From Scenedesmus sp. PABB004 (lineage: Eukaryota), in assembly GCA_014905635.1 (NCBI GenBank), contig CM026547.1, forward strand, positions 4,402,001 to 4,466,000: 64,000 bases of DNA, in the 5' to 3' direction. Shown in pieces: positions 1,600 through 50,005 of the stretch (position 1 is the first letter of the stretch; the number at the start of each line of letters is the position of its first letter). Made by a program: the position numbers and the translations under genes. The notes under the pieces are model-generated. The model was not told the origin of the DNA, made no database searches, and was given only the letters and a program-made list of their open reading frames with translations.

Positions 1600-3602
1600 A
1601 TGCCGGAGCCGCTCCCGCCGGCGGTGCTCGACGCGGCGGTCGCGGGCGCCACGCCGCGGCAGCGCGCGGCGCTGGCGCTCGTGTGCCGCGAGTGGCGCGC
1701 GGCGGTCCTGCGTGCGGCGCCGCGCGTGGACGCGCCGCTGCGCAGCGACGCCGGCGCCGCGTCCCTGGCCGCCTGGCTGGGCGCGCACGGGGGCGAGCTG
1801 CTGGAGGTCAGCGTCTCGACCGAGGGCCTGTTCGGGCGCCACTGCACCCCAGCGACGCGTCTTTCGATTTTTGCCGCCCTCCACGCCGCCGCCGGCAGTG
1901 CGCCGCCCGCGGTCGCCGCCGGGGCCGGCAGCGACGGCGACGGCGACGGCGACGGCAGCAGCGACGGCGAGGACGAGGCGCCCCCGGGACAGCTGGAGCC
2001 GCAGGCAGGACAGCAGTCGCGGGCGGTGCGGCCGCTGCGGCTGCGGAGCCTGCGGGCGAGCATGCGCATCGGCGCCCCCGAGTGCGCCGCCCTCGCCTCG
2101 CTGCCCGCGCCCGCGCTGGCGAGCCTCGAGCTCACCGGCTCGCGCACGCGGCGGCTCGGCCTCGACGGCGTCCGTGCGCTGGCCGAGGGGCTGTCGCAGC
2201 TCACGTGCCTCAAGGTGCAGCACCTTGGCATCGGCAACGACGCCGCGGCGCTGCTGGCGCAGCGCCTGCCGCGGCTGGTGGACGTCTCCCTCGCGGGCAA
2301 CAACCTCGGCCCCCCGGCCGCCGCCAGCGTTGCACAGCACAGCACCGCGCTGACCGCGCTCGACCTCTCCATCAACAGGTGGGCGGGCGTGCGTGCGGGC
2401 GGGGCCGCCGCAGCCGCAGCCGCCCGCCGCCGCCGCGGGGGGCCGCCGCAGACCGCGCGCGCGCCGCGGCCGCGCGCCGCGCAGGGTCCAGGACGCCGGT
2501 CTGATCAGCCTGTGCGCGCTGGCGCGCCTCGAGGCGCTGGACGTGTCTGGCAACGTAAAGTTTGCGCCCGCAGCACTCGGCGCGCTGCGCGGCCTGACCG
2601 CGCTGCGCCGCCTCGGCGCCGCGAGCGCGGGGCTCTGCAACGCGGGCCTCGCCGCGCTCGCGGCCGCGGCGCCGCGCGGCTGGAGGCGCTCAACGTAGCC
2701 GGCAACCGCCTCAGCAAAGCGGAGCCGCTCGCCGCGCTGCTCCACCTCAGCTCGGTCGTCCTGTCGCGCAACCCGCTGCAGCTGTCGGCCGGCCGCGTGC
2801 TGGCGGGCCTGCCGGAGCTGCGCGAGCTGGTGCTCTTTGAGGCCCTCGCCTCGCCCAAGGGCGTGGCGCCGCTGTCCGCGCTCGCCGCCGTCACGTCGCT
2901 CACGCTCGGCGCCGACCCCGCGCTGCACCCGGAGGGCGAGGCCGGCGCCAAGCTGGCGCTCGCGGGCGCGCGCGGCGCGGGCAAGCTGCTGGCCGGCCTT
3001 GCCGCCGGGGGCCGGCTCGGGTCGCTCGCCGCGCCGTGCAGCGGGCTCGACGACGGCGGCGCCCGCGCGCTCGGCCGCCTCGGCGGCAGCCTGGTGCACC
3101 TCAACCTCGGCTACAACCCCATCAGCGCCGCCGGCCTGCGCGTGCTCCGCGAGCTGCCCGCGCTCGCGCGGCTCGAGCTGCGCAGCCTGCGGCCCGAGCT
3201 GGGCGACGACGGGGCGGCCGCCTCGCGGGCTGCAGCGCGCTCACGCGGCTCACGCTGCTGGACCTGGCCTTCAATGACCTCGGCGGCGAGGGCGTGCGGC
3301 GCCTCGGCGCCGCGGCGTGGGCGCCGAGGCTGCGGCACCTCAACCTGCGCGGCAACGCCCAGGTGGAGCAGGCGGCGGTGCTCGCCGCGGTCGCGGCGGG
3401 GCTGCGCGGCCTGACCTACATCAACCTGGAGGAGATCGGCGACGTCAGCGACCGCGCCGGGCGGGGCGGGCACGCCGCGCTGTGGGCGGCGCTGCCAGAT
3501 CTGTGCGTGCTTGCCGCGCGCAGCTACGGCAGAGGCGGCCCCGGCACCAGCACCGGCGGCGCGGCGTTCCGCAGCGGGCGCGTGATGATCAGCTGCGGCT
3601 GA
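1600..3602 (+). CDS. F-box-like / leucine-rich repeat (RNI-like) protein; two apparent frameshifts in this assembly
   Basis: N-terminus MPEPLPPAVLDAAV..LALVCREWR is F-box-like. Many LxxLxLxxN repeats (LTALDLSIN, LEALDVSGN, LVHLNLGYN, LTLLDLAFN, LRHLNLRGN). Intron 2379-2484 (GT..AG). Frame changes near 2675 and 3221 lack splice sites. Confidence 0.8.
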
Positions 3603-3816
3603 GCGAGGGCGTGGGCTGTGAGTGAGTGGCCACGGGCGGGGCCATGCTGGCCGCTGCGCAGCGTGTTGCGTCAACTGCCCGCCGCGCCTGTGACGCCCTT
3701 CGGAACCTCGCCAACGGCGGCAGGGAGACGCGCTTACAGCCGCCAGCCAGCCACGCAGCCGCGGCCGCGCCCCGGCCGCCGGCGGTTCTGCGCCGGCGGC
3801 CGGCGCCCCCCCCCCC

Positions 3817-32889: not shown

Positions 32890-34289
32890 TCACTCGCCCT
32901 CCTCGCCTGCCGCGCCCTTGAGCACGCCCGCGCTCCAGCCCGTGGCCGGGTGCGTGAAGGCCGCCTCGAACGCGCGCAGTGCCTTGGCCTGTGCTGCGCT
33001 CACCCTGGCCGGCAGCAGCAGGGCCGCGCGCAGCAGCGCCTTTTGCTGCTGGCTGAGCGTCGCCGGGAAGCGCAGCTCAAACTCCAGCACCAGGTCGCCC
33101 TGCGCACGCGCGGCGGGAGGCGGCGCGTCAAAACTGGGGCCAGCCAGCGCCGCGCCAGTTGCGCGGCCGGCCGCCGGCCCAGCTGACTGCGCCCGCACCC
33201 GTGCGCCGCCGCCGCCCGGGATGGGCATGCCCTCGCCCGCCACGCGCATCGACAGCCCCGGCGTCACCACCTCCTCCAGCGGCACGCGCAGCACGCTGCG
33301 GCGGCGGCGGCCGGGCAGGCGGGCGGCCGCGGCTCAGCGGCGGCCAGGGCTTTGGGCGCGCGCGGCTCGGCGGCGCCGCGCGCTCGCCCGCGGCGCCCGG
33401 CCAGCTGCGCACCGGCCGTCCAGCGTGGTGATGCTGACCGCGCCGCCCGCGAGCGCCTGCAGGAGCGGCAGCTGCACGCGCGCGACCAGGTCTGCGCCGA
33501 CGCCGCGCCGGAACACCGGGTGCGGCGCCGAGCCGAGCACCACGACGACGGCGCCCGGCGGCGCGCCGCCGGGCTCGGCGTCGCCCTCACCCTCAAACAC
33601 ATAGCGCGTGCCGTCCGGCAGGCCCGGCTCGACTGCGACGGTCAGGCTGCGCTGCTGCGCGGCCGGCGCGCCGCCCTCGCCGGGCACGCTGCGCGTGTGC
33701 GAGACGACCTTGACGCAGCCGGCGTGGATCTCCTCCAGCGGCACCGGCAGGTCGAGCTGGGCGCGGCCGGCGGCCGGCGGCGCGCGCCTGAGCGTGCCAG
33801 GCCAGGCATGGCCGCGCGCGCCCGCCCCGTGCGCGCCCGCCTCGCCCCTCACCTCGAGCTGCTTGCCGGGCGCCGGCTTGGCCTGCGTCGTGAGCCGCTC
33901 AAAGTGCGCTGCCAGCGCTGCGAGGGAGCAAGGAGGGAGCACGGGCGGGCGGGTGGTGGGCCGCTGCGCGCGCCGGGCGGCGAGCGCTCGCCGCCGCCGC
34001 TGGCTGCGCTCACAGTTGAGCGCCTCAAAGGGGTTGCTCATGCCGAAGAAGCGCGCAAACGTGGCCCCCGGGCCGGCCGCCGCGTCAAACGTGTAGCCGC
34101 ACCCCCCGCCTGCACCGCGGCGGCATTTGGGGGCCGGCGGATGCCGCGCAGCACTCGCAGCGCGGTCGACCGCGCGGTTTCGACGTCGAAACCGCGCGCA
34201 TCGCTCGCCGCGCGCCGCGCGCCGCACCGTCAGCGCTGGCCTTGAGCGCCGCCTCGCCGTAGAGGTCGTACGCGCCCTTGGTCCTTGCT

Positions 34290-34329
<40 letters not shown>

Positions 34330-34797
34330 GGCTCGCAGGACGGATCGCGGGCGCGCCGGCGGCGCGGGCTGGCGTCGCGCTGCGCACCGCAGCTGAGCAC
34401 GTCGTAGGCCTCGCAGATGCGCGCAAACTCGCGCGCGCCCTCCGGTGAGCCGTCCGCGTCGGGGTGGTGCTTCAGCGCGAGGCGCCGGAACCTGCGCCGC
34501 GCGTGCGGGCGCCGCGTGGGCGGCGAGTGCGCGTCGCGAGCCTGCAGCGCTGGCTGCGGGGCTGCTCGCTCGCGCGCGCGTGACGCGCGGCGCACGGCGC
34601 ACGAGCACTCACGCCTTCTTGATCGCCACGTCGTCGGCGCTCCTGCCGTCAACGGGGCGCGCACCAGAGCAGCGGCGCGCTGGTCGGCGCGGCGCGGCGG
34701 CACGCAGCGCGCGGCGGCGGCGCGGCGCGGCAGCGCGCAGCGCCCGCCCGCGCCTGGCCAGGCCCAGCGCGTCGTAGTAGTCCTGCTCCGGCGCCAT
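32890..34797 (-). CDS. Class B HSP40, DNAJB13 / flagellar radial spoke protein 16 (RSP16)-like
   Basis: J-domain DYYDALGL..FRRLALKHHPD..EAYDVLS..YDLYGE; FARFFGMSNPFEAL; C-terminal domain LPVPLEEIHAGC..FEGEGD..TTLDGR..GEGMP..GDLVLEFELRFP. The tail KALLRAALLLP..KALRAFEAAF..GW resembles algal RSP16 (from memory). Confidence 0.85.
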
Positions 34798-35188
34798 GTG
34801 CGCAGCCGGGTGCGAAGAGCGGCGGCGCGGCGCTGCGGTTGACTGCGTGCCGCGGGCCGCCTGCGGGCCTGGCGAGTGCGCGGCGGCTTGAAGGGGTGGC
34901 GGGCTCTCACACGCCGGCCCCCGCACGGCGCGTGCGACCCCGACCGCGCGCCGGCCGGGCGTAACAGTGTCACGCCCCCCGCTGCTCCACGCCTCGCCCG
35001 GCCGCGCTGCCGGCGCGTCCACACTCCCGCACGCGCCCAGCGCCCAGCGCGCCGCCGGCAGCCCGCGCACGCCCCGCCCAGGCGCCGCCCAGGCCCCAGG
35101 CGATGGCCGCAGCAGCGGCGCGCGCGTGAGCACGCAAGCAGTGATCGGCGCGGCGCGGCCGCTGGGATAGACCAGGCCGACCGTCACC

Positions 35189-38100
35189 ATGGCGGCGGCG
35201 CTGCCCAAGCAGAAGGAGGTCACCACCCGCGAGGTGGCGTCCATCCAGTTCGGCATGTACACCGACGACGAGGTGCGCGACGGGGGCCGGCCAGGCCCAG
35301 GGGCCCGCCGGCGGCGCCGCGCGCCCGGCGGCGGCGGCGCGGCGGCGCGGCGGCCGGCGCCGTGCGCGCGGCGGCAGCAGCGCCGGCGGCCGCCGGCCCG
35401 CCGGCGCCGGCGCGGGCCGCCGCGGCGGCGCCGGCGCCGCCTGCGCGCAGCAGCCGCGCGTCCCACCCGAACGCGGTCGCCGCGGCGCCCCGCCGCCGTG
35501 CGCGGGGGCCGCCGGCCGCCGCGCGGCGGCGGCCGCAGCGGCCCCACCGCCGGCCGCCGCGCCGCGCCCGCGCTGCGCGGCCCCCCGTGCACCACGCGCC
35601 GTGCGGCCTCCCGCGCCCACGCGCCACGCGCCGCGTGGCCCACGCGCCGCCGCGCCGCGCGCCGCGCGCCGCAGGTGCGCAAGCTGAGCGTGAAGCGCGT
35701 GCTGTCGCCGCTCACGTACGACGCGTTCAACAACATCATCCCCGACGGCCTCTACGACCCCGCGATGGGCCCCGTCGACTTCAACGGCCGCTGCAGCACG
35801 TGCGGGCTCGGGCACAGCCAGTGCCCCGGGCACTTTGGGCACATTGAGCTGCCCGTTGTCGTGTACAACCCGCTAGTGTTCGGGTGCGGCGGCCGCGGCG
35901 CAGCGGCGGCACAGCGGCGGCGGCAGCGGCAGCGGCGGCGGCCGCACGCGCGCGCGGTTGCGTGCTCCGCGCCGCGCGCGCCGCTCACGCGCCCGCGCCG
36001 GCGCCGCGCCGCGCCCGCGCGCCCGCAGCACGCTGTACCGGCTGCTGAAGCACACCTGCCTCAACTGCCACCAGTTCAAGATGGGCCGCAAGGAGGTGCG
36101 GCGGCGGCGGACACGCGCGCTTCCGCGCCCCTGGCCCGCCGCCTCGGCTGACTGACGCTGCCGCGCCGGTCGACGCCTTGCGCCCCTGCCCCTAAACCCC
36201 AGATGTCAAAGTTTCTCGTCAAGTTCAACTGCCTCAGCCGCGGCGACCTCGTCGCGGCGAGCCTCATCTCCACGTCGGGCGCCGGCCCGCGCGCGTCGGC
36301 GCTGGAGGAGGTCCTCGGCGTCGCCAAGGCGCCCAAGGCGCGCGGCAAGAAGAAGGGCGACGCCGCGGACGGCGACGGCGGCACCGAGGAGGCGGAGGCC
36401 GCCGCGGCGGGGCTGCTGCTCGACGGCGACCTCGGCAGCGGCCTCGGCGCGTACGAGGCCGCGTACGGTGCGGGCAGCGGGCGGTCGCTGCAGCGCCTGC
36501 CGCGCACGAGCCACATCCAGGAGGCGCTGCGCGTCGCGGTCGCCGAGTTTTTCGCGCGCATGCCCGGCCAGCGCTGCCAGAACTGCGGGTGCATGAACCC
36601 GGCCATCCGCAAGCAGGGCAGCACCAAGCTGTTCAAGCAGTACAGCCGCAAGGCGCTGCTGCAGAACGCGATGCGCGGCATCGACGTCGCGTCGCTCGTT
36701 GGCGCCGGCGGCCGCAGCGCGGCGCGCCAGCTCGGCGCCGCGCTCTCGCCGCCGCCGCGTGGCGGCGCCAACGGCGTCGGCGCCGGCGGCGAGGAGAAGA
36801 AGCGCAAGCGCGACGCCGCCGGCGACGGGGGCGAGGGCGCGCCCAAGAAGGGCGCCGGCGCGGGCCTCGCGCGCGGCTACGCCGACGGCGAGCTCAAGCG
36901 CGGCGCCAAGGCGGAGGAGCCCGACGCCACGCTGGTGCGGGCGCCCCGCCGCCGGCCACCGCCCGGGCGCGGCGCCCGCCGCTCACGCGCGCGCGGGACG
37001 GGCGGCAGCCGCGCGGCGCGCTCACGGCGCCGCCGCCGCCGCCGCCGCGCGCAGGGCGACGAGGGCGAGGATGCGGGCAGCGACGACGAGCAGATGGCCT
37101 CGCCGCCGCCGGCTGCAGGCGCCGCCGGCGGCAAGCCGCGCGCCCCCACCAAGGCGCAGGCCGCCGAGGCGGCGGCGGTCAAGTCGCTGGAGCAGGACAT
37201 CAGCCTGTGAGCGGCCGCCGCGCGCCGCCGCGCCCGCCTGGCGCTGCCCCAGCCACGCGCGCCGGCCGCCGCCGCGCCGCCCGCCGCCGCGCCGCCCGCG
37301 CCGCTGACCGTGCGCCGCCGCGCCTGCGCCGCCGCTCTGCGCGCAGGGACGACAAGACCAAGCCCAAGTTCATGGCGCCCGACGAGGTCGAGGGCCACGT
37401 CGCCGCGCTGTGCCGCGCCGAGAGCGGCGTGCTGCGCCACCTCTACGGCGGCGCCGACCTGCGCGAGCTCTCGCGCGGCGGGCTCGGCGGCCTCGGCGGC
37501 GTCGCCACCGCGGCGCGGGCCGACCCCGGGCGCCTGTACAAGAGCTTCTTCCTCCGCGCCCTCGCAGTGCCGCCCAACAGGCGCGCGCCCCCGCAGGCCG
37601 CGCGCTCCTCGACGGGCGCCGCGGCGCCGCGCCGCCGCGGCGGCCGCGCTGGCTTGGCTGACACACGCCCACCGTCTGCGCGGCCGCGTGGTGCCCAACA
37701 GGTTCCGGCCGCCGAGCGTGATGGGCGAGACCAAGTACGAGCACACGCAGAACGTGACGATGCAGCGCATCCTGCAGCACACGATCGCGCTCGGCTCGAT
37801 CCAGCAGGACATGGCCAACGCCGCGGCCGCGGCGGGCGGCGCCGGCGGCGCGCCGCTCTCGGCCGCCGACGCGGCGGCCGTCGCGGCGGCGCGGCGCGGC
37901 GAGGCGCTGCAGCGCTTCACCGCGGCGTGGCTGCGCCTGCAGAACGAGGTCAACGCCCTCATCGACTCGACCGCCGCCGACAACACCGACCAGGCGGTGC
38001 GCCGCCGCGCGCCGGCTCCTGCGGCCCGCGCACGGCGCGCCCGCACGCACCCGCCGCCCACACGCACGCACCCGCCCCGGTCGCCCGCCGCCGTTGTTGC

Positions 38101-39053
38101 ATTGTGTGACAGGGCGTGCGGCAGCAGCTGGAGAAGAAGGAGGGCCTGTTCCGCAAGAACATGATGGGCAAGCGCGTCAACTACGCGGCGCGCTCCGTCA
38201 TCAGCCCAGACCCCTACATCGGTGTGTGCCTCGCTCGCACGCGTGCGCTTTGTGCCTCGCCCGCACGCGTGCGCGCGGTCAGCGACGGCCCGGCCCCGGG
38301 CCGCGCCGCCGGGCGCACGTGCGCACGCGCGCGCGCCCACACCACACCGCCGCCGCCCCGCCGTCGCCGCGGGCGCAGGCGCTGGCGAGATCGGCGTGCC
38401 GCCCTACTTTGCGACGCGGCTGTCCTTCCCCGAGGCGGTCACGCCGTGGAACGTGGAGCGCCTGCGCGCGATGGTCACCAACGGCCACGAGACCCACCCC
38501 GGCGCGCTCGCTGTCGAGGACTGCAACGGCAAGACCGTGCTGCTCTCGCGGCTCAAGCCCCAGGTGCGCGCCGCGCGCCGGCGGCGGCAGCGGGGCGGCG
38601 GCGAGGGTGCTGCGCGCGCGCGTGTGCGCGCCCCGCGCGGCGACCGGCGGTCGCCGGCGTTGTCGGCGCTTCTCTCACCCCCGCCCGCCCGCCCGCCCGC
38701 CCGTGCCGGCTGCGACCGCAGCAACGCGAGGCGATCGCGAAGCAGCTGCTGCAGCCCAGCTTCACCGCGGGCGGCGGCCGGCGCGCGGGGCGGGGCGGCG
38801 CCGGCGCCGCGCCGGGCGGCGCGGGCGGCGTCGGCGTCGGCGGCGGGCGCGGCAAGGTGGTGCACCGGCACCTGCTCGACGGCGACGTCATGCTGACCAA
38901 CCGCCAGCCCACGCTGCACAAGCCGGGCCTCATGGCGCACAGGCGAGCCGCGCGCGCTCGCCGCCGGCTGCTGCTACACGGCGCCCGCGCCCCGCGCCCG
39001 CGCGCGCCGCGCCGCGTCCGCGGCCTGGGCCGCCGGGGCGGCGCCGACCGGCG

Positions 39054-39086
<33 letters not shown>

Positions 39087-42000
39087 ACGGCCGCAGGGCG
39101 CGCGTGCTGGCGGGCGAGCGCACCATCCGCATGCACTACGCCAACTGCGCGACGTTCAACGCCGACTTTGACGGCGACGAGATCAACCTCCACCTCCCGC
39201 AGGCGCGCCAGGGGGGGCGGCGGTTCAGGGCGTGGTTCAGGGCGCGGTTCAGGGCGCGGTTCAGGGCGGCTCAGGGCTGAGGGCCCGGGGGCGGAGGGGC
39301 GATCCCCCGCCGCACCGCGTCCGCGGCGCCGCCGCCGGCGCCGGGCCTCGCCGAGCGTGCCGGCCGCGCGCCGCGCCGCGCGCCGCGCGCAGGACCACCT
39401 GGGGCGCGCCGAGGGCTACGGCATCGTCCACGCGGACCGGCAGTTCATCGTGCCCACCGACGGCAAGCCCATCCGTGGCCTCATCCAGGACCACGTCGTC
39501 GCCGGCGTCATCCTCACCTGCAGGGACGCGTTCTTCACGCGCGCCGACTTCAGCCAGCTGCTGTTCGCGGCGTGCACGCCCTGGCGCCCGGGTGCGGCGG
39601 CGGCAGCGCCGCCGCACCCGCGCCGCGGCGTGCCGCGCAAGCGGCACGCGCGCCCCGTCCTGACCCCCCGCCTGCCCGCGCCGGCCCCCTGCAGGCGGCA
39701 CGCCCGCGGTGCAGCTCGTGCTGCCGCCGCCGGCGCTGCTCAAGCCGCGGCAGCTGTGGACGGGCAAGCAGCTGCTGAGCAGCGTCATCTGCCACTTTGC
39801 GGGCGGGCGGCCGCCGCTCACCTTCAGCAGCAGCAGCAAGGCGCGGCGCGCGCCCCCGCCGTCGCCCGCGCCCGCCGTTGCCCGCGCCTGCCGCGCCTGC
39901 CGCCCGCCCGCGCGCCGCGCCGAGCAGCGCGCCGCCGCCCGCCGCACCGCGCCGCGCCGCGCCGCCGCAGGTCCCGCTGAGCTACTGGGGCTCCGACAGC
40001 GACGAGGGCACCTTCCTGCTGCACAAGGGCCAGCTGCTCGCGGGCTGCCTCGACAAGGCGCAGTTTGGCAAGTTTGGCCTCGTGCACGCGATGCAGGAGC
40101 TCTACGGCGACGAGGTCGCCGGCGCGATGCTCAACGCGCTGAGCCGCCTCTTCACCATCTTCCTCCAGGGCCACGGCTTCACGTGCGGCATGGACGACCT
40201 GCTGCTCCAGGGCCGCGCCGAGGCGGCGCGCACGCGGGTGCGTGTGCGCGGCTCGGCGGCGCCGCGGCGGCGCCGCGGCGCGCGGTCGCGCGGCGCCGCA
40301 GCGGGGGCCGGCCACACCCTGTCGCCGCCGCGCGTGCGCCGCCGCGTGCGCGACAGGTGCTGGCCAAGGCCGAGCCGACCGCGCTGGCGGGCAGCGCCGA
40401 GGTCGTGCGCACCAAGCTGGTCGTCGCCAGCGCCATCGCGCAGGGGCAGGTGCGCGTGTGTGCGGGGCGGGGCAGTGGCGGCGTCGCAGCGCACACAGCG
40501 CGGCCAGCCTGCAGCCAGCGGCGCACAGCAGCACACGCGCAGCACACGCGCACGGACCGAGGGTGGGCCCGCGGGCACCTTTAGCCGGGCGCCTGCGGGC
40601 CGTTGACCAGGAGCACCCGGCCAGCCGGCCGCCCCCCGTGGGTGCACAGTCCTCAAGTGAACACCCGAGAGCGACGGCGCGCGGCCGAGCCTCGCCCGCG
40701 GGGCTCCCGCGCGCCCGCGACTGCTGATTCCATCACCTTGGGGAGCCCCGTCGGGGCAGTTACCTCGTGGGTCTTACCCAGCATGCGACACCGCCACAGC
40801 ACACAGCACACAGCGCAGCACAGCATGCACAGCACGCACAGCACGCAGCACAGCACGCGGCTCCCACCTCCCCCTCCCGTTCCCTGCACGCCGCGCGATA
40901 GCTCTCGCGCCGCGGCCGCCGCCGCCCCGCTGCGCACGTGCCCGCCCCCCGCGCCCTGCGCCCTGCGCCGCGGCACACAGGCGCGGCACCCCAAGTGGCC
41001 GCAGCTCGCCCCCGACGACGCTGCGCTCATCGCGCAGCAGCCGGGCAGCCGGCTCGCGGGGCTGCTCGCCGCGGAGCGCCTCGTCGTCGCGCGGCAGCTG
41101 GAGCAGCACTACTGCACCAACGGCGCCGCCACGGGCGCGGTGCACGACGCCAAGGTCACGGGTGCGCCGCGCCGCCCCGCGCCGCCCCGCGCCCTGCGCT
41201 CGCCGCCCGCCGCCCGCCGTGCCCGTCCCCCGCCCCGCGCCGCGCACGCCGCCGCCGGCCCGCGCCGCCGCCGGCCCACGCCGCCGCTAAAAACCCCGCG
41301 CCGCCGCTTAACCCCGACGCCTGTCCCGCTCGCCAGGCGTGATGCACCCGCTCGCGAGCGAGGTGATCAAGGCCTGCATCCCCGGCGGCCAGGCCAAGCC
41401 CTTCCCCGCCAACTGCATGTCCCTCATGACCGTCAGCGGCGCCAAGGGCAGCACGGTCAACTTCAGCCAGATCGCGTGCCTGCTCGGCCAGCAGGCGCGC
41501 GCCGCGCCGCGCGCGCCAGCCCCGCCCGCGCACGCGCCGCAAGAACAGCCCCGCCCGGCCCGCTCACGCGCGCGCGCGCGCGCGCGCGGCCGCGGCGCGC
41601 GCGCGCGGCGAGCTCGCGCAGGAGCTGGAGGGCCGCCGCGTGCCGCGCACGAGCGCGGGCAAGTCGCTGCCGTGCTTCCGGCCCTACGACGGCGGCGCGC
41701 GCGCGGGCGGCTTTGTGGGCGACCGCTTCCTCACGGGCCTGCGCCCCCAGGAGTACTACTTCCACTGCATGGCCGGGCGGTGCGTGGGCGGTGTGTTTGT
41801 GTGTTTGTGTGTGTGTGGTGGGTGGGTGTGTGTGCGTGTGTGGGAGTGGGTGTGAGGGGAGGGGAGGGGGACACACACGCAGAGGCTGAGCCGCGCACGC
41901 GCGCCTCACGCGGCCCGCGCGCCTCACGCGCCGCCGCCGCCGCCGCCGCTGCACGCGCGCGCGCGCGCGCGCAGCGAGGGCCTCGTCGACACGACGGTCA

Positions 42001-45000
42001 AGACGAGCCGCTCCGGGTACCTGCAGCGCTGCCTGGTCAAGAACCTCGAGGCGCTGCGCGTCGGCTACGACGGCACCGTGCGCGACGTGTGCGACGGCAG
42101 CATCGTGCAGCTCTACTACGGCGACGACGGCCTCGACGTCACGCGCGTGAGCTACATGAAGCAGACCGCCTTCCTCGCCGCCAACGCCGCGAGCGCGGCG
42201 CGCCAGCTCGGCCTCGCCGACGGCGGCGGCGGCGGCGGCGGCGACGGCGGCGCCGCCGCGCTCGCAGCGCGGCTGCAGGCGCGGCTGCGCGAGCTCGGGC
42301 TGCTCGGCGGCCGCCAGGCGGAGGCCGCGGCCGCGCTCGCGTCGCGCGGGCGGCTGCTGGAGGCGGCGGCGCGCGGCGACGCGCGCGCGGCGCGGGAGCT
42401 GCGCGAGGCGTTGCCCCTCATGGGCAGGTGCGGCGCGGCACGCGGCGCGCGCCGGCACGCGCCCGCCGTCGGCACGCGTCTCTATCCGCAGCGCCCGCGC
42501 CCCTCCCCGACTCGACCGCCCGTGCGCCGCGCCGCGCCGCCGCGCGCGCCGCGCGCAGGTTCTTCCCGTCTGTGCTGGGCGCGACGAGCGAGGCGTTTGC
42601 CGACGCGGTGGAGGCCTTCTGCGCGGCGCCGCCGCAGCACCTGCTGCTCACGGCCGACGGCGCGGCCGCGGCGGCCGACGCGGCCGCGGCGGCGGCTGAG
42701 CTCGAGGCCGCCGCCGGCGGCAAGGGCAAGAAGGACAAGGCCGGCGGCAAGGCGGAGCGGCGGCGCGAGGAGCTGGTGCAGCGCCTCGTGTCGCGGCAGC
42801 TCGTGGCCTCGGAGACCAAGATGGCCCAGATGGCCGCTGAGGGTGCGGCGCGCGCGCGCGCGCGCGGCGCAGCGGCCGGCCGGGGGCGCCGCGTCACGAC
42901 GCGCACTCCTGCCCTGCCCCGCGCCGCCGCGTCCGCCGCCCTCAAACCCTCGACCCTCAACCCCTGCCCCGCGCTGACGCCGACAGACTTCCGGGCGCTG
43001 ATGCAGCTCAAGTTTATGTCGGCGCTCGCGGCGCCGGGCGAGGCGGTCGGCGTCATCGCGGCGCAGAGCGTTGGCGAGCCCTCCACGCAGGCGCGCAGCG
43101 CGCGGCGCGCGGCAGCGGCGCACGCGGGGCGCTGCGGCGCTGCGGCGGCCACGGGCGGCCGGGGGCGGCGGGGCGGGGGGCGCGCGCCCGTGTGTCCATA
43201 CCTGAAATGGCAATGACGGTCAAACTGACGCGCCTGCTGCCCTGGCGCAGATGACGCTCAACACCTTCCACATGGCCGGCCGCGGCGAGGCCAACGTCAC
43301 GCTCGGCATCCCGCGCCTGCGCGAGATCCTGATGACCGCGGCGCCGCGCATCAAGGTGCGGCCCGCGCAGCACGGCAGCGCGCGCGGCGCGGCGCGGCGC
43401 GGCGCTGCTCGGTCTGTCCCGCGCCTCGCCGCCGCGGCCGCCGCCGCCGCCCGCCTGCGCGCGCCGCACTCACAATCAATTGTGTGGCGCCGCGCTGCCA
43501 GACGCCGACGATGACCATGCCGCTGCGGTCGAGCGTGGACGACGCCGCCGCGCAGCTGCTGGCCAACCGCATGCGGCGGCTGCGGCTCGCAGAGTGCCTG
43601 CGCGGCATCAAGGTGCGCGGCCGGCCGGGGCGGGAGCCGTCGGGCGCTGCGGGGCGGCTTGGGGCTGTGGCAGGGCTTAAGGGTTTGTCCAGCGGGGGTG
43701 GTTGTGTGCGGGGTTCAGTTGCCGACGCCCCTCACTCACCATGGCGAAGCCCCTCAATGGCGCGCCGCGGCCTTTGATGGGCGCACAGCGCAGCCCAGCG
43801 GAGCACCATCAGGCAAGCGGGCGCCCACCCGTGGCGGACCGCTGTTCTTTGGCCCGCACATGTTGTGATTGTCTTTCTTTTTTTTTCTTTCTCCTCTCCC
43901 CCGAGCACACACGCACACACACCAGCGCGCCGCTGCCGCGCTCCTCAACGAGCCGCGCCACCCGCGCGCCGCGCCGCCCTTTTCCCGCGCGCGCAGCTGT
44001 GGGAGCGGCCCGTCGTGCCGGCGCCGCACCTGCCCGGCGGCGGGCGCTGGGGCAAGGGCTACGACCTGCAGCTGCGCTTCTACGACATGGAACAGTACCC
44101 CAAGGTGCGCCCACTGGTCAGCTGCTTGTTGTGTGACTGTGCAGCTGCCTGTTTAATTGCTCGCTTATGTCAAGCAGTCGAGGGAGCGCTCGGCCGCGGC
44201 GCGCCCGCTCCAGCCGCCGACCGGGCGTTGAGCGTGGCCGCGGGACGGGCGCCGCGCGCGAGCTGACCGCCGGCCGCCGGCCGCCGCCGCAGGGCGCGGA
44301 GCTGACGTGGGCGGCGCTCGAGGAGGCGCTGGTCAAGGGCTTTGTGCCGCAGCTGCGCGCGGCGCTGCGCAAGCAGCTCAAGGTGCAGGGCCTCGCCATC
44401 GGCAAGGGCGTCGCCGTCAGCGCGGCCGGCGACGAGGGCGGCGGCGGCGGCGCCCGCGGCGCAGGTGCGCGCGCTGTCGGTTGTGTGCGGGCGCGGTTTT
44501 TCTGCGTGGTTTTGTGTGGTTGGCCGCCAGGTTTCTATGCACATTGCACACTGCAGCAGCCCTCAGCCAGCCAGCCGCCCTCACTCACCATGGCGAAGCC
44601 CCTCAATGGCACGCCGCGGCCTTTCAGGGGCGCACAGCGCAGCCCAGCGGAGCACCATCAGGCAAGCGGGCGCCCACCCCGTGGCGGACCGCTGTTCTTT
44701 GGCCCGCACACGACCTCCACCCCTCTCCCCACCCCAAACCTCCCCTCACCGCCGTGCCGCCCAGCTCACGCGCCGCCCCCGCGCCGCCCCCGCGCCGCCC
44801 GCGGGCCGCCGCCCAGCGGCCGCCGACGAGGACGGCGGTGACGGCGAGGGCGGAGAGGGCGGCGGCAGCAGCCGCGGCCGCGCCAAGGCGGCGGAGCGGC
44901 AGGAGGTGGACGCCGACGACGACCGGCCGGACGAGGCAGCAGAGGACGAGGAGGTGCGGCGGCGCGCCCTGGCGGCGCCTGGGAGGCGCCTGGGAGGCGC

Positions 45001-46577
45001 CCCAGGCCGCCGGCTGCGCCTGCGCGCGCTCGCCGGCCCCCGCTCACGCCGCGCGCGGCCGCGGCCGGCAGGCGGACGAGGAGCTGCGCGAGGGCAAGCT
45101 GCGCTTCCGCGGCGGCCGCGGCGAGGCGGCGACGTACGACGACGGCGACGAGGTGCGGCGCCGCGCCGGCGCGGGCGCGGGACTGGGGCTGAGGAGGGTT
45201 GAGGGCTGGTGGTCCCGTGGGCCGCGCCGCGCTGACGGCCGGGCCGACGGCCGCCGCGCGGGCTCGCGCGCTGGGCGCCGCCGCAGGAGGACGCCGACCT
45301 CAACGCGGCCATTGACGTCGCGATGAAGCAGCGCCTGGGCGAGGAGGAGTCGGAGGAGACCGACGACGGCGCGGACGGCGAGCAGCAGCAGCAGGAGCAG
45401 GAGCAGCGCGGCGGCTCGCCCGACGGCGCCGCGCCGCCGGCCGGCGCCCGGGGCCAGCAGGCGCTGGCCGCGGCGGCCGCCGCGGCGGCGGCCAAGCGCG
45501 GCGGCGGCGCCGCCGCCACGCCGGCAGCGGCCAAGGCTGCGGCCCGCCGCGCCGGCGCGCGGATGGTCGGCGACGAAACGGTGAGCTGCCGCATCGACGA
45601 GGAGCGCCACCGCTGCTACATCCAGGTGCGCCCCGCCGCGCCCCGCCGTGCTCGCCCGCTCGCGCGCCGCGCCCGCGCCGGGGCTCTCACACGCCCGCGC
45701 CGGCAGGTGGTGCTGCCGCTGGCCGCGCCCAAGGTGCTCATGCTGGAGCTGGCGGAGGAGGTCGCCGCGAGCGTGCTGGTGCACCACGTGTCCGGCATCC
45801 AGGCGGTGCGCCGCGCGCAGCCGCAGCACCCGCCGCCGCTCGCCGCCGCCGCGTCCGCGCGTGCCCGCTGCCGCTCGCTGCCGCAGCGCGCGCCCGCCGA
45901 CGCCGGCGCCGCGCCGCCGCCGGGCGCCAGGTGCACCTGCTGGACCCGGACAAGCCCGGCCAGCCGCGGCGGCTGCAGACGGAGGGCATCAACTTCCCGG
46001 GCGTGTGGGCGCAGGGCGGGCTGCTGGACGTCGACGCGATTGCCTGCAACGACGTCCACGCCATGCTCACCACGTATGGCGTCGAGGCGGCGCGCGCGAC
46101 GATCCTCAAGGAGGTCCAGGTGCGCTAGCTAACAGCAGCAGCGCACGCCCGGGCACGCGGCGGCGGCGCGGCGCGGCGCGGCCGCCGGGGCGCCGCACAC
46201 GGCCGGCCAACGCCGCCGCCGCCGCCGCCCGCCGCCGCCGCGCCGCCGCCGCGCGCCGCCGCCGCCGCCGCCCGCGCGCGCGTGCTGCGCAGTCTGTGTT
46301 TGGCGCGTACGGCATCGGCGTCGACCCGCGGCACCTGGGGCTCATCGCCGACTTTATGACCCACACGGGCGGCTACCGCGCGTGCAACCGTCTCGGCATC
46401 GACTGCGAGACGAGCCCGCTGCTGAAGATGTCGTTCGAGACGGCGGCCAAGTTCCTCATGGACGCCGCGCTCACGGGCGACGGCGACGCGCTCACCAGCC
46501 CCGCCGCGCGGCTCGTGGTCGGCCAGGTCACGCAGGTCGGCACGGGGTGCTGCAAGGTGCTGCACATGCTCGCGTGA
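35189..46577 (+). CDS. RPA1: DNA-directed RNA polymerase I largest subunit, about 31 exons
   Basis: [59 protein letters not shown]; catalytic [16 protein letters not shown] (near 39158); [73 protein letters not shown]. Confidence 0.98.
39219..39276. repeat. Intronic ~12-nt tandem repeat (gcggttcagggc) x4-5
   Basis: Directly visible in the RPA1 intron starting at 39203. Confidence 0.75.
40575..40793 (+). ncRNA. Possible intronic cluster of single-hairpin H/ACA-like RNAs
   Basis: Within the long RPA1 intron 40450-40980. Hairpin A GCACC(40575)..GGUGC then ACA(40646). Hairpin B UGCUG(40722)..CAGCA then ACA(40788), with the upper stem ending about 15 nt before ACA. Composition differs from typical introns. 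Confidence 0.4.
43725..43863 (+). ncRNA. Candidate intronic H/ACA-type snoRNA(s), copy 1
   Basis: Hairpin CGCCC..GGGCG with upper stem CCAUGGCG/CGCCGCGG ending exactly 14 nt before ACA(43785). Second hairpin GCGGGC..GCCCGC immediately followed by ACA(43858). Near-identical copy at 44576-44713. Confidence 0.7.
44576..44713 (+). ncRNA. Candidate intronic H/ACA-type snoRNA(s), copy 2
   Basis: Same sequence and structure as 43725-43863 with few differences; ACA at 44634 and 44708. Similarity stops right after the last ACA. Confidence 0.7.
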
Positions 46578-47207
46578 GGCGCACGCGGTCGAGGCGGTCA
46601 ACGGCGGTTGCGCGCCGCGCAGCGCGGCGCGGCGGCGGTCGCGGTAGCAGCAGCAGGGGTGTGTGCAGGTGTGCAGGCGTGCAGGGAGCGAGCGGAGGGC
46701 GGCGCCGGGCCTTGCAACCGCGCGGGCCGGTGAGCAGCGGCCCCCGCGGCGCAGGCGGCGCGCGGGTCAAGCACGCGCCAGCGCGACCGCAGTAGCCGTG
46801 ACCGCGGCGGCGTGTGTGCGCAAAGGGGCTGGTCGCGGGGTGGGCAGCTGGCCGAGCCGCCGATGACGAGAGCGTCGCGACGCGCGCCGCCGGGCACCCG
46901 GCGCTCCAAGACCGCCCCCGCGCCGCCCCGCGCGTCACGCACAATTACGAACCACACGCGCACGTCTCCAACGACACCCAGAGAGAGCGCAGCGCTCGAC
47001 GCCACCGCGCACGCAGCCGACAGCGACAGCGACGCAGCGCGCGACACACCTGCAGGCCGCCGCGCTGCGTGGCGTAGTCGTCCAGACTTTCGGACGCCCA
47101 GTTCAGGCGCCATTGGCATCGCGGCGTGCACCTAGGCGCGACAGCAGGACAGCTCGCAGGCGCCTCCCTCGCCAGGCCCCCGCGCCCTCGGCCGCGGCCT
47201 CCCCGAC

Positions 47208-48078
47208 ATGCTGCAGGCGGTCTCCACCGCCCTGCTGGCGCGCGGCGTCGGCGCGGCGCTGGCGCCGGCGCTGGGCACCGCCGGCCTGCGCGCCCTCGCG
47301 TCGCTCCGCGGCCTCGCCACCGGCGCCGCGTCCGGGCACCCCGGCGTGCGCTGCAGCTGCAGCGGCGCCGCGGGAACGGCGGGCGCGGCGGGCGCTGGCG
47401 CCGCGCGCGCGTACGGACAGCCTGCGTTTGCAGAGTCCGACGCCGCGCCGGGCGGCACGGCCGGCGGCGCGCCGCTGGCCATCCCCGACGTCCGGGGCCG
47501 CATCCACAGCACCGAGAGCTTCAGCGCCGTCGACGGCCCGGGCGTGCGCTTCCTGGTCTTCACGCAGGCGCGCGGCCGCGCGCGCGGCAGGGGCGGCGCG
47601 CGCGACGCGCGCGGTGGGCCAGCGCTCGCCCCGCTCAGCAGCGCGCTCACGCCGCGCCCCGTCACCCACCGCGCCCGCGCGCGCAGGGCTGCGCGATGCG
47701 CTGCCTCTTCTGCAGCAACCCCGACACCTGGAGCCCGCACGCGGGCGAGGAGGTGTCGAGCAAAGACATCGCCGCCCAGATCCGCTCCGTCGCGCCCTAC
47801 CTGCGCCCCGGCGGCGGCGGCGTGACCTGCTCCGGCGGCGAGCCGCTCCTGCAGGTGCGCGCGCGCGGCAGCGGGCGGGCGGCGGGCGGCGGGCGGGCGC
47901 AACGGGCCGCGCGACCTGCGCCCCCCGCGTGTCCGCTCACGCGCGTTCCGCCGCACGCCGCGCGCAGCCCGACTTCACGGCCGCGATCTTCCAGGAGGCG
48001 CACGCGCTCGGCCTGACGACCTGCCTGGACACCACGGGCCAGGGCAGCAAGCACCACAACTGGGACAAGGTGCGCCGC

Positions 48079-48144
<66 letters not shown>

Positions 48145-48933
48145 ACGCGCGCGCCGGACGCGCCGCGCGCGCCGCCGCTGAGGCCGCGGCCCTGCCGCAC
48201 GCGCGCCGCCCAGGTGCTGCCGCACACCGACATGGTGCTGTTCTGCGTGAAGCACCTCGACCCCGCGCGCTACACCTCGCTCACCGGCCTGCGCCAGCTC
48301 GGCGCGCTGCGCTTCGCCGACGAGCTCCGTGCCGCCGCCATCCCCTTCTGGCTGCGGTGCGCGCCCGCCCGCGCGCGCGCGCGCGCGCCGCGGGGGGCCG
48401 GCGGCGGTGCGCCCGCGGGGCCCGCGCTGCTCGCGCGGGTCGGGGCCCTGCGCCTCACCGCCGCGCCTGCTGCCCCGCCGCCGCCGCCGCCCCGCGCGCG
48501 CCTGTCACGCAGGTATGTGCTCATCCCGGGGCACACCGACGACGCGGCCGGCATCGACAAGCTCATCGCATTCTGCCAGAGCCACCCGAGCCTCATGGTG
48601 CGCGCGCGCCCGCGCACCAGCCCGGCCGGCGCCGCGCGCGCGGCGCAGCCCGGCCGGCGCCGCCCGTGCGGCCGCCCGCGCACCCGCCCGCGCGGCCGCC
48701 CGCCGACTGGCCCCGCCGCCGCGCGCGCCGGGGCGCAGGGCGTGGAGCTGTTGCCGTACCACCTGCTCGGGCGCAACAAGTGGGACGAGATGAACATGGC
48801 CTACCCCCTCGACGGCGTGGCGCCGCCGCCGCTCGAGGCGACGCTGGCGGTGGTCGACCGGCTCGAGGCGGCGGGGCTGAATGTCATCTGCGACGCCAAG
48901 CGCGCGCGCGGGCCCGCGCCGGGCGCGCTGTGA
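47208..48933 (+). CDS. pflA: Pyruvate formate-lyase activating enzyme (radical SAM), organelle-targeted
   Basis: Targeting peptide MLQAVSTALLARG..; GRIHSTESFSAVDGPGVRFLVFTQ|GCAMRCLFCSNPDTW (CxxxCxxC); GGVTCSGGEPLLQ; CLDTTG; WLRYVLIPGHTD; VELLPYHLLGRNKW. Confidence 0.96.
48083..48143. repeat. (GCC)n microsatellite, about 20 units, intronic
   Basis: Directly visible in a PFL-AE intron. Confidence 0.9.
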
Positions 48934-50005
48934 CGCGGCCGCACGCGGGCGCGGCGCGCGCGCGACGCGGCGGCGCGCAGCCGCGCGGCCGCGCGGCCCC
49001 CGCCTTCCTGTGGGGCGCCGCCGGCGGCGCGGCGCGTGCGTCGGCGCGTGTGTGTGCATCGGCGAACGCTCCGGGCTCCCGGCGCTCGCTCGGCCAGCAT
49101 TTTTTGATGCGCCTTTTCCAGCAGCGTGCGCCTCTCTGTGTCTGCCTCTCTCTCTCTCTCTGCACTGCCTGGCGGGCGGGCGGCGGCGGCGCGCCGACAG
49201 CCGCGTGCAGAGGCGGCGCGCCGCCGCCCCCGCCCGCGCGCGACGCATCCCGCAGCTGCCTGCGTCCGCAGGCGCCGTCGCCGCGCGCCTCGCGCCGTGC
49301 GCGGCGCGCCCATCGCACCGTCATTCATGCTTGTTGTTGCTCCGGCCGGCCCACGCCGGCCCATTTGCGCCCCGCGCAGAACCCACCCACTAACCCCGGC
49401 TGCTGCGCAGGCGCGCGCGCGCCCGCCCGTGCAGGCACGGCGGCGGCGCGCACGCGCCGACTCGCGCGCCGGGCTTGCAGGCTGCTATGCCATGATCAGG
49501 GGCATTCAGGGCACAATTAGGGCATTTTTCAGGGCACGCGATCGCGTACATCAAGAAGCACACCGCGGGAACGAGGAGGGCAGCGCGCGTGTGCCACGAC
49601 CGACCTCGGTCGTGTGCGGGCAAGGCGCCGGCCGCCGCGCTGCGACGCGCGGCGCGCCACCCCAAGGTGCCGCCTCCCGCGAGCAAGGTTTGGAGTACTG
49701 CGCCTTGACCAACGCAACCCCACGTGCGGGGCGGCGGGCTGGCCGCGAAGAGGGTGATCGGAAGGGGGCGGGAGATGACAGCGGGGGGATGAACAGCGAG
49801 GGGCCGCGCCTTGGCGGCAGCAGCAGCCGCGCGGCTGGCTGGCGACGGGCTGCTGCCGAGGCGCGCGGGATGCACGTGTTACGCCGCTACGAGCCCCCCG
49901 CCCCGCGCGTTCACCGACGACCCCCGCCGCCGCGCGGCGCCGCGCCCCTGCTGCCGCTGCAGCAGGGGTCCGCGCGCGCCGCGCTGCCGCGCCGCTGCCG
50001 GCGCG

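What the first reader, a model, noticed from the sequence alone, without database searches (positions are those of the whole stretch)
43725..44713. Duplicated intronic H/ACA-like snoRNA in the Pol I largest-subunit gene with a predicted LSU rRNA target
Seen: a ~135-nt sequence occurs almost identically in two RPA1 introns (43725-43863 and 44576-44713) with unrelated flanks, and similarity ends at a terminal ACA. Hairpin 1 has lower stem CGCCC/GGGCG, upper stem CCAUGGCG/CGCCGCGG, pocket strands CACUCA and CCUUU, and exactly 14 nt to ACA in both copies; the differences between copies spare the pocket. The pocket predicts target 5'-AAAGG-U-N-UGAGUG-3'. This matches my recollection of green-algal LSU rRNA GAAAGGUUUGAGUG, the region of yeast 25S Psi776 (snR80). 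No ANANNA H box is evident, so these may be tandem single-hairpin ACA guides, a type reported in Chlamydomonas introns. Inference: rRNA modification guides are co-expressed with the rRNA polymerase.
Basis: partly seen in the sequence, partly recalled or inferred. Interest (0 to 1): 0.75.

Follow-up and report, generated by a model that had tools for sequence, protein, structure and literature searches.

The report
Duplicated intronic pseudouridine-guide snoRNA candidate
Two introns of a green alga's RNA polymerase I gene each carry a copy of a small RNA that looks like a guide for a conserved pseudouridine in large-subunit ribosomal RNA, which is a credible but ordinary kind of gene.

Summary
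A 133-nt block occurs twice (43729-43860 and 44578-44710), 97% identical, with unrelated flanks, and ends on ACA. Both copies lie on the sense strand in separate introns of the Pol I largest-subunit gene of a 79% GC chlorophyte.

The 5' half folds into a well-defined hairpin with an internal loop, with ACA exactly 14 nt after the upper stem in both copies. The loop pairs 5+6 bp (copy A) or 6-7+6 bp (copy B) around a U in a conserved LSU rRNA site. I found that site in at least 110 metagenomic rDNA contigs. By offsets to published Gm805, Am807 and Am817 it corresponds to yeast 25S Psi776, the snR80 site.

Shuffled pockets reach this match in 3-8 of 2000 trials. None of 135 other ACA-hairpins in the window reaches it.

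Weak points:
- There is no ANANNA H box.
- The 3' hairpin has no support from folding and no significant target.
- There is no Rfam hit.
- I had no RNA data, no genome-wide copy count, no orthologous introns and not the species' own rRNA.

Verdict: a probable new member of the intronic H/ACA snoRNA class, of modest interest.

The parts
43726..43863 (+). Copy A of the snoRNA-like element. The predicted mature RNA runs from the 5' stem to 3 nt past the terminal ACA.
   Evidence: Repeat limits. The ends are inferred from the H/ACA rule and were not mapped.
43726..43783 (+). Copy A hairpin 1. Lower stem 43726-30 / 43779-83; 5' pocket strand CUCACUCA 43731-38; upper stem 43739-46 / 43763-70 with an apical GCC/GGC stem-loop; 3' pocket strand CCUUUGAU 43771-78.
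   Evidence: MFE of the isolated half is -26.9 kcal/mol, takes 78% of the ensemble, z = -2.37, and 6 of 200 shuffles fold as well.
43785..43787 (+). Copy A internal ACA in the hinge (H-box position, read as ACAGCG), 14 nt after the upper stem.
   Evidence: Counted. Found by the window-wide scan.
43788..43857 (+). Copy A 3' half, the putative hairpin 2. Pairs GCG/CGC, GCC/GGC and CAGCGG/CCGCUG, with a one-sided UUCUUU loop.
   Evidence: This is the MFE of the isolated half, but z = +0.72 and it takes 6% of the ensemble, so folding does not support it.
43858..43860 (+). Copy A terminal ACA, at the exact 3' limit of the repeat.
44576..44713 (+). Copy B of the element.
44576..44632 (+). Copy B hairpin 1. 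Lower stem 44576-80 / 44628-32; 5' pocket strand UCACUCA 44581-87; upper stem 44588-95 / 44612-19; 3' pocket strand CCUUUCAG 44620-27.
   Evidence: MFE of the isolated half is -24.0 kcal/mol, z = -1.37.
44634..44636 (+). Copy B internal ACA, 14 nt after the upper stem.
44637..44707 (+). Copy B 3' half, the putative hairpin 2. It carries the one-base C insertion in its apical part.
   Evidence: z = +0.66.
44708..44710 (+). Copy B terminal ACA at the repeat limit.
43613..43996 (+). Host intron carrying copy A (GT..AG, phase 0, 384 nt).
   Evidence: Reading frames and sequence. The transcript-derived relative P0001 aligns residues 434-484 to 43475-43627 and 479-541 to 43994-44182, with nothing in between.
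44465..44816 (+). Host intron carrying copy B (GT..AG, phase 1, 352 nt).
   Evidence: Frames. P0001 residues 514-551 end at 44400 and residues 585-616 start at 44867, which leaves room only for the flanking exon ends.
35213..46577 (+). Host gene: RNA polymerase I largest subunit (RPA1), many exons.
   Evidence: Two exon translations hit the four Pol I RPA1/RPA190 chains first, at E 3.7e-30 to 2.9e-20 and 1e-21 to 6.2e-20, ahead of Pol II, Pol III and archaeal chains. Exon HSPs are colinear with chlorophyte RPA1 proteins.

Best explanation
The two blocks are paralogous copies of an intron-encoded, box H/ACA-type pseudouridylation guide RNA of about 138 nt.

Proposed mechanism:
1. Each copy is transcribed as part of the RPA1 pre-mRNA.
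2. It is released from the spliced, debranched intron and trimmed by exonucleases up to the bound core proteins (Cbf5/dyskerin, Nop10, Nhp2, Gar1).
3. The internal loop of the 5' hairpin pairs with LSU rRNA on both sides of a U-N dinucleotide. The target reads 5'-(U)(G)AAAGG-U-N-UGAGUG-3'.
4. This places the U, the counterpart of yeast 25S U776, in the Cbf5 active site, 14 nt from an ACA that occupies the H-box position.
5. The 3' half with the terminal ACA is the second protein-binding module, needed for accumulation. It has no convincing target of its own.

Copy B is the better guide (12-13 Watson-Crick pairs). Copy A is slightly weaker (11 pairs).

Shown here: the repeat, its intronic sense position, the predicted 5' hairpin, the box spacing, and complementarity to LSU rRNA of other eukaryotes.

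Inferred: expression, processing, RNP assembly, actual pseudouridylation, and that this species' own LSU rRNA has the motif.
For: 1. Only the element is duplicated, between two non-adjacent introns with unrelated flanks, and similarity stops at ACA. ACA is rare in this window: 738 sites on 128,000 strand positions.
2. The 5' half folds on its own into lower stem, internal loop and upper stem in both copies. Copy A has z = -2.37 and 78% of the ensemble. The sum of the two half-folds is -53.5 and -50.9 kcal/mol, within about 2 kcal/mol of the full-length MFEs of -55.3 and -53.2.
3. ACA lies exactly 14 nt after the upper stem in both copies.
4. The target motif implied by the pocket is present at a fixed place in at least 110 rDNA contigs. 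All 4 of the 4 contigs I tested are Rfam LSU_rRNA_eukarya.
5. Over the 110 sites, copy A pairs 5+6 bp in 100, 5+8 in 9 and 5+7 in 1. Copy B pairs 6+6 in 44, 7+6 in 43, 5+6 in 12, 6+7 in 8, 5+7 in 2 and 8+6 in 1.
6. Shuffled pockets reach 11 or more Watson-Crick pairs anywhere in a full rDNA unit in 3 of 2000 trials (L004) and 8 of 2000 (L052).
7. In a window-wide scan, 137 of 738 ACA sites had an H/ACA-like hairpin. Only the two copies reach 11 or more pairs. The other 135 reach at most 10, and that only in one of three rDNAs.
8. The target U is LSU position 770 in L004. G, A and A lie at +29, +31 and +41 from it, matching published yeast Gm805, Am807 and Am817 if the U is U776. Psi776 is guided by snR80 (tables seen in passages of PMC5699541 and PMC8307265).
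9. The host is a chlorophyte ribosome-biogenesis gene. In Ostreococcus tauri 72 of 131 snoRNAs are intronic and 33% sit in ribosome-biogenesis genes (passages of PMC7671301).
Against: - No ANANNA H box. The hinge reads ACAGCG, so the last A is missing.
- The 3' half folds no better than shuffles (z = +0.72 and +0.66; the MFE takes 4-6% of the ensemble). Its loop is one-sided.
- The best rRNA match of the 3' half (10 pairs including one G.U) is reached by 204 of 2000 and 273 of 2000 shuffles.
- The whole element on the + strand is no more stable than shuffles (z = +0.30 and +0.72), while the - strand folds better (z = -1.91 and -1.49).
- No Rfam family matches at E<=10. This is weak evidence, because plant snoRNA families have almost no identifiable homologues in green algae (PMC5122169 passage).
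- The rDNA contigs were retrieved with the predicted motif, so the presence of the site in them is by construction. This species' own rRNA was not seen.
- With two copies at 97% identity there is no covariation evidence.
- 19% of all ACA sites in this GC-rich window (137 of 738) pass my hairpin criteria, so structure alone is weak evidence.
Confidence: 0.65

Rival explanations
1. H-box-less variant. The element is not a canonical two-hairpin H/ACA RNA. It is two tandem single-hairpin ACA units, or one functional 5' hairpin-ACA guide of about 62 nt plus an unrelated 3' tail. It would be processed and bound like the single-hairpin guides of trypanosomatids, Euglena or archaea.
For: Each half ends in ACA, and the hinge has ACA instead of ANANNA. 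Each half folds alone into a hairpin that stops just before its ACA. Only the 5' unit has a significant target.
Against: The total length (about 138 nt) and the hairpin-hinge-hairpin-ACA layout are what a canonical eukaryotic H/ACA RNA looks like. ACAGCG keeps the A-N-A core of the H box. The 12 papers listed by my search showed no report of single-hairpin guides in green algae. The size of the mature RNA is unknown.
Confidence: 0.15
2. A neutral duplicated intron segment, or a fragment of a dispersed repeat or mobile element. Its hairpin, ACA boxes and rRNA complementarity would be coincidental.
For: 97% identity shows a recent copy or gene conversion, which needs no function. Stems form easily at 79% GC: 137 of 738 ACA sites pass the hairpin criteria. 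The 3' half is not structurally supported. The genome-wide copy number could not be tested.
Against: Only two copies lie in 64 kb, both on the sense strand and both in introns of one gene. By eye I saw no terminal inverted repeats, target-site duplications or poly(A) tail. The repeat limit falls on an ACA. The 11-13-bp bipartite match to a conserved, known pseudouridylation site is reached by 0.15-0.4% of shuffled pockets and by 0 of 135 decoy hairpins.
Confidence: 0.15
3. Another kind of structured RNA, for example an intronic hairpin small-RNA precursor or a minus-strand transcript.
For: The minus strand folds better than its shuffles (z = -1.91 and -1.49).
Against: The extra minus-strand stability is expected from G.U pairing opposite C/A-rich stretches. 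There is no long perfect hairpin of the miRNA-precursor type. The box positions and rRNA complementarity exist only on the + strand. No C/D boxes are visible: by eye I found no CUGA in the element.
Confidence: 0.05

Closest known systems
Saccharomyces cerevisiae snR80 (box H/ACA snoRNA guiding 25S Psi776 and 18S Psi759)
   Same: It is predicted to guide the same LSU uridine. The mapping uses the +29, +31 and +41 offsets to Gm805, Am807 and Am817. It has a bipartite pocket and a box about 14 nt away.
   Different: There is no detectable sequence homology, and no Rfam family matches at E<=10. snR80 is, as I recall, an independent gene and not intronic. A canonical H box is absent here. A second target like 18S Psi759 is not evident.
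Intron-encoded H/ACA snoRNAs of green algae (Ostreococcus tauri, PMC7671301; Chlamydomonas reinhardtii, Chen et al. 2008 Genetics 179:21)
   Same: The element lies on the sense strand in introns of a protein-coding gene tied to ribosome biogenesis. Multi-copy isoforms are described as common in Chlamydomonas and plants (passage of PMC7671301).
   Different: The O. tauri authors required an ANANNA hinge box, which is missing here. I could not compare sequences or targets, because the O. tauri supplement could not be read and Chen et al. is not held (seen only in reference lists).
Single-hairpin H/ACA-like guides of trypanosomatids and Euglena (AGA box) and archaeal one- to three-hairpin ACA sRNAs
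   Same: Each hairpin is followed directly by an ANA triplet (ACA), with no H box.
   Different: Those RNAs are either single hairpins of about 60-70 nt or archaeal RNAs with K-turns bound by L7Ae. Here the two units are joined, sit in a spliceosomal intron of a chlorophyte, and the mature size is unknown. These descriptions are recalled. Only titles and abstracts of the trypanosome papers were seen.

Membership tests
box H/ACA snoRNA | [quoted passage not shown] | tested here: inconclusive
   The 5' hairpin is well supported (z = -2.37 and -1.37). The 3' hairpin is the MFE of its half but is no better than shuffles (z = +0.72 and +0.66).
box H/ACA snoRNA | H box ANANNA in the single-stranded hinge | tested here: not met
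   The hinge reads C-ACAGCG-CAG, and no ANANNA lies between the hairpins. ACAGCG keeps A at positions 1 and 3 only.
box H/ACA snoRNA | ACA triplet 3 nt from the mature 3' end | not testable with these tools
   ACA lies at the exact 3' limit of the repeat in both copies, which fits. No RNA ends are available: no RNA holder was listed.
box H/ACA snoRNA | Internal-loop pocket with bipartite antisense elements flanking an unpaired U-N of the target, 14-16 nt upstream of the H or ACA box | tested here: met
   The spacing is 14 nt in both copies. There are 11 (copy A) and 12-13 (copy B) Watson-Crick pairs around a U in LSU rRNA of other eukaryotes. Shuffles reach this in 3-8 of 2000 trials.
box H/ACA snoRNA | The target is a uridine that is actually pseudouridylated | not testable with these tools
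   The equivalent yeast position is Psi776. The mapping assumes yeast has the same spacing as all 110 contigs. This species' rRNA and its modifications are unknown.
box H/ACA snoRNA | Stable nucleolar RNA bound by Cbf5, Nop10, Nhp2 and Gar1 | not testable with these tools
   There are no RNA or protein-binding data.
box H/ACA snoRNA | Conservation with compensatory changes in related species | not tested
Any curated Rfam snoRNA family (including snR80 and plant snoR families) | Covariance-model score at or near the gathering threshold | tested here: not met
   There were 0 matches on the elements at E<=10 and 0 in the whole window at gathering thresholds.
box C/D snoRNA | C box RUGAUGA and D box CUGA near the ends with a terminal stem | tested here: not met
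   By eye there is no CUGA in either copy. UGAUGG occurs in copy A only.
MITE / SINE | Terminal inverted repeats with target-site duplication (MITE), or an A/B box with an A-rich tail (SINE), and many dispersed copies | tested here: inconclusive
   By eye there are no TIRs, TSDs or A-tail, and only 2 copies lie in the window. The genome-wide copy number is not testable.

The most novel reading that the evidence does not exclude
A chlorophyte pseudouridylation guide in which the H box is replaced by a second ACA. This would be a double-ACA RNA, either functioning as a dimer of archaeal- or trypanosome-style single-hairpin units or processed into two RNAs of about 65 nt. It is hosted twice in the gene for the polymerase that makes its substrate, which would couple guide supply to Pol I expression.
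Probability: 0.2. Interest if true: 0.5.

Novelty: new member of a known kind. Interest (0 to 1): 0.3.

Why it matters
If real, this adds an unannotated snoRNA pair to a very GC-rich chlorophyte. It also predicts that the LSU pseudouridine known in yeast as Psi776 is kept in green algae by a guide with no recognisable sequence homology to snR80. Hosting in RPA1 fits the general rule that snoRNAs ride in ribosome-biogenesis genes. The only unusual point is the ACA in place of an H box, which bears on how strictly eukaryotic H/ACA RNPs need the ANANNA motif. None of this would surprise a snoRNA specialist.

Tried and rejected
- Rfam: nothing on the elements. The only weak hit, snoU82P at 41360-41428 (E = 1.1, 16.6 bits against a gathering score of 42), lies in an exon and is taken as chance.
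- Whole genome: not held, so copy number is untested.
- Earlier findings of this scan: nothing for this sequence or genome. A words search returned only unrelated intronic snoRNA reports from other genomes.
- Sequencing runs: no RNA holder listed. One DNA run, X1 (a freshwater metagenome), holds 0.05 of the words.
- Laying X1: mostly short partial matches, 90 of 93 only partly on the stretch. There are a few near-exact short contigs, for example 171 nt at 43605-43775 with 0 differences. This says nothing about expression or copy number.
- Viral-contig scan with a conserved LSU motif: one chimeric contig, L001, carrying GAAAGGUUUGAGUAAG. It has no Rfam hit at gathering. I used it only as a lead.
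- Hairpin 2 targets: the best is 10 pairs at GGAAAAGGA[U]UGGCUC of LSU, not significant.
- Second site for the hairpin 1 pocket, in SSU rRNA at GAAAGG[U]CUGGGUAAUC: 10-11 pairs including one G.U. It appears in 2 of the 3 rDNAs with a complete SSU. Matches of 11 or more pairs with G.U allowed occur in 5-7% of shuffles, so I did not pursue it.
- Box C/D, MITE and SINE readings: rejected on the missing motifs.
- Literature: Chen et al. 2008 is not held. The O. tauri supplement could not be read and may list a guide for the same site. The Arabidopsis review (PMC8351944; a term search, the outline and the first part of section 9 read) gave no mapping for this site.
Full report
**Observation**

The region holds a genuine two-copy repeat. 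The repeat finder reports 43729-43830 / 44578-44679 at 97% and 43828-43860 / 44678-44710 at 100%. MAFFT and BLAST give 133 aligned columns with three substitutions (43762 G/A, 43776 G/C, 43778 T/G) and one single-C indel, 96.99% identity.

Downstream, similarity stops two bases after an ACA triplet. Upstream, only a faint resemblance continues for about 20 nt. A sensitive BLAST of both copies with flanks against the whole window found no third copy on either strand. The window is 79.1% G+C.

**Host gene and position**

Translations of two conserved exons hit the four solved Pol I largest subunits first, at E 3.7e-30 to 2.9e-20 and 1e-21 to 6.2e-20. These are well ahead of Pol II, Pol III and archaeal subunits.

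A search of the large protein collection with the last exon returned chlorophyte RPA1 proteins. The best is a transcriptome-derived protein, P0001, at 86% identity. The best named hit is Monoraphidium minutum at 76%, followed by Micractinium, Gonium, Chlamydomonas and others.

tblastn of P0001, P0003, P0008 and P0010 against 34000-48000 gives colinear exon matches from about 35213 to 46568. P0001 comes from spliced RNA. It jumps from 43627 to 43994 with no residues in between. Between 44400 and 44867 it leaves room only for the ends of the flanking exons.

Together with reading frames and GT..AG ends, this places copy A in intron 43613-43996 and copy B in intron 44465-44816. Both are on the sense strand, 113 and 111 nt from the 5' splice sites. 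An intron without a copy (44105-44292) lies between them. The flanking exons are unrelated, so only the element was copied.

**Structure**

Folded whole, the + strand is no more stable than shuffles (z = +0.30 and +0.72). Folded as halves split after the internal ACA, the picture differs.

It has a lower stem CGCCC/GGGCG, an internal loop, an upper stem CCAUGGCG/CGCCGCGG (one A.C mismatch, one U.G pair), a small internal loop, and an apical GCC/GGC stem-loop.
- For copy A this fold takes 78% of the ensemble with z = -2.37. For copy B z = -1.37.
- The upper stem is followed by 14 nt and then ACA in both copies.
- The 3' half has as its MFE a hairpin that ends directly before the terminal ACA. 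It is no better than shuffles (z = +0.72 and +0.66), takes 4-6% of the ensemble, and its loop (UUCUUU) is one-sided.
- The sum of the two half-folds is -53.5 and -50.9 kcal/mol, within about 2 kcal/mol of the full-length MFEs.
- No ANANNA lies in the hinge, which reads ACAGCG.
- Of the four differences between copies, one is in a small internal loop of hairpin 1, one is in the apical part of the 3' half, and two are in the distal part of the 3' pocket strand.

**Target**

The pocket implies a target 5'-AAAGG-U-N-UGAGUG-3'. I could not obtain this species' rRNA because no genome is held.

A conserved LSU motif searched in viral contigs gave one chimeric contig carrying GAAAGGUUUGAGUAAG just upstream of it. 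I then scanned metagenome contigs for the predicted motif followed, within 8-30 nt, by that conserved LSU motif. All 110 have the same 18-nt spacing.

I ran Rfam on 4 of the 110 contigs (L004, L052, L058, L071), and all 4 are eukaryotic LSU rRNA with SSU and 5.8S alongside. The G+C-richest contigs read ...CUUCUGUGAAAGGUUUGAGUGCGAGC....

Pairing over the 110 sites:

| Copy | Left + right Watson-Crick pairs (number of sites) |
|---|---|
| A | 5+6 (100), 5+8 (9), 5+7 (1) |
| B | 6+6 (44), 7+6 (43), 5+6 (12), 6+7 (8), 5+7 (2), 8+6 (1) |

**Controls**

The rDNAs were chosen by the motif, so the fair question is how often any pocket finds such a match.

- Shuffling both pocket strands 2000 times and scanning complete rDNA units gave 11 or more contiguous Watson-Crick pairs (each arm at least 4) in 3 trials (L004) and 8 trials (L052). 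With G.U allowed the figures rise to 108 and 131.
- I wrote a snoGPS-like scan of the whole window on both strands. It found 738 ACA sites, of which 137 have an H/ACA-like hairpin by my loose criteria. This shows how cheap stems are at 79% GC.
- Only the two internal ACAs of the copies reach 11 or more pairs against three rDNAs. The other 135 reach at most 10, and only in one rDNA.

**Which uridine**

In L004 the target U is LSU position 770. Counting on the contig sequences, G, A and A lie at +29, +31 and +41 from it. Published tables list yeast 25S Psi776 (snR80), Gm805, Am807 and Am817 (passages of PMC5699541 and PMC8307265), which are exactly those offsets. Neighbouring registers put the wrong base at 805 or 807.

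The mapping assumes yeast shares the spacing seen in all 110 contigs. I did not check that on a yeast sequence.

**Other pairings**

- The same pocket also fits an SSU site, GAAAGG[U]CUGGGUAAUC, with 10-11 pairs including one G.U, in 2 of the 3 rDNAs with a complete SSU. By the G.U-allowing control this is not significant.
- The putative pocket of hairpin 2 has its best match at GGAAAAGGA[U]UGGCUC of LSU, with 10 pairs including one G.U. Shuffles reach that in 204 of 2000 and 273 of 2000 trials. I assign hairpin 2 no target.

**Interpretation**

The best reading is a recently duplicated, intron-encoded H/ACA-type pseudouridylation guide whose 5' hairpin targets the U776-equivalent of LSU rRNA. 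It would be released from RPA1 introns after splicing. I give this 0.65.

The missing H box and the weak 3' hairpin keep open a variant in which the units act as single-hairpin ACA guides (0.15). A neutral or mobile repeat with coincidental features (0.15) cannot be excluded without the genome. It has to explain the ACA at the repeat limit, the 14-nt spacing and the rare bipartite match together. Another kind of structured RNA, or a minus-strand product, gets 0.05.

**Comparison with what is known**

Functionally this is the counterpart of yeast snR80 for 25S Psi776, but without detectable homology: Rfam gives nothing at E<=10. That is expected, since land-plant snoRNA families have almost no identifiable homologues in green algae, and 131 families are known only from Chlamydomonas (PMC5122169 passages).

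Intronic location, hosting in ribosome-biogenesis genes and multi-copy isoforms are all described for green algae (PMC7671301 passages). None of the 12 papers listed by my search held both terms, and Chen et al. 2008 is not held.

**What remains open**

- Expression: no RNA holder listed.
- Genome-wide copy number.
- The species' own rRNA and its modification.
- Conservation in orthologous introns.
- The supplement of the O. tauri paper, which may list a guide for the same site, could not be read.

**Verdict**

A real feature and a well-supported snoRNA candidate. It is a new member of a known kind, and interest is modest.

Noticed in passing
window 1-64000: The whole window is 79.1% G+C, which is extreme for a nuclear genome with spliceosomal introns. 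The nearest named RPA1 relative is Monoraphidium minutum at 76% on one exon, and no identical protein is in the collection.
   Followed up: partly
window 40760-40880 and 41780-41900: CA-rich and GT-rich microsatellite-like tracts form low-GC islands in RPA1 introns (strong AT and GC skews in the composition profile).
   Followed up: no
window 43865-43925: A long pyrimidine tract (T-rich, then CA repeats) lies directly downstream of copy A. Copy B is followed by a C-rich pyrimidine tract. Their role, whether branch or polypyrimidine region or a processing signal, is unknown.
   Followed up: no
window ~46900-49000 (+): The next gene downstream looks like a pyruvate formate-lyase activating enzyme (radical-SAM motif CLFCSNPDTW in an ORF translation). 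The name is recalled from the motif and was not tested.
   Followed up: no
L058 1-8095: This metagenomic rDNA contig has four Rfam group I intron matches (711-1095, 1926-2250, 3196-3547, 7467-7818). It also has a tRNA-model hit at 3645-3717 inside the span assigned to LSU rRNA.
   Followed up: no
L001 2950-3099 (-): An IMG/VR 'viral' contig ends in a fragment of about 100 nt that looks like eukaryotic LSU rRNA (GAAAGGUUUGAGUAAG...CCCGAAAGAUGGUGAACUAUGCC), then continues into unrelated AT-rich sequence. It is likely a chimera or a captured fragment. There is no Rfam hit at gathering.
   Followed up: partly
L071 SSU position 1922; L052 SSU position 1510: The hairpin 1 pocket also fits an SSU rRNA site, GAAAGG[U]CUGGGUAAUC, with 10-11 pairs including one G.U. 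This is a possible second target, but it is not significant by the G.U-allowing shuffle control.
   Followed up: partly
window 41360-41428 (+): A weak Rfam match to box C/D snoU82P (16.6 bits, E = 1.1, gathering score 42) lies inside an RPA1 exon. It is probably chance.
   Followed up: no
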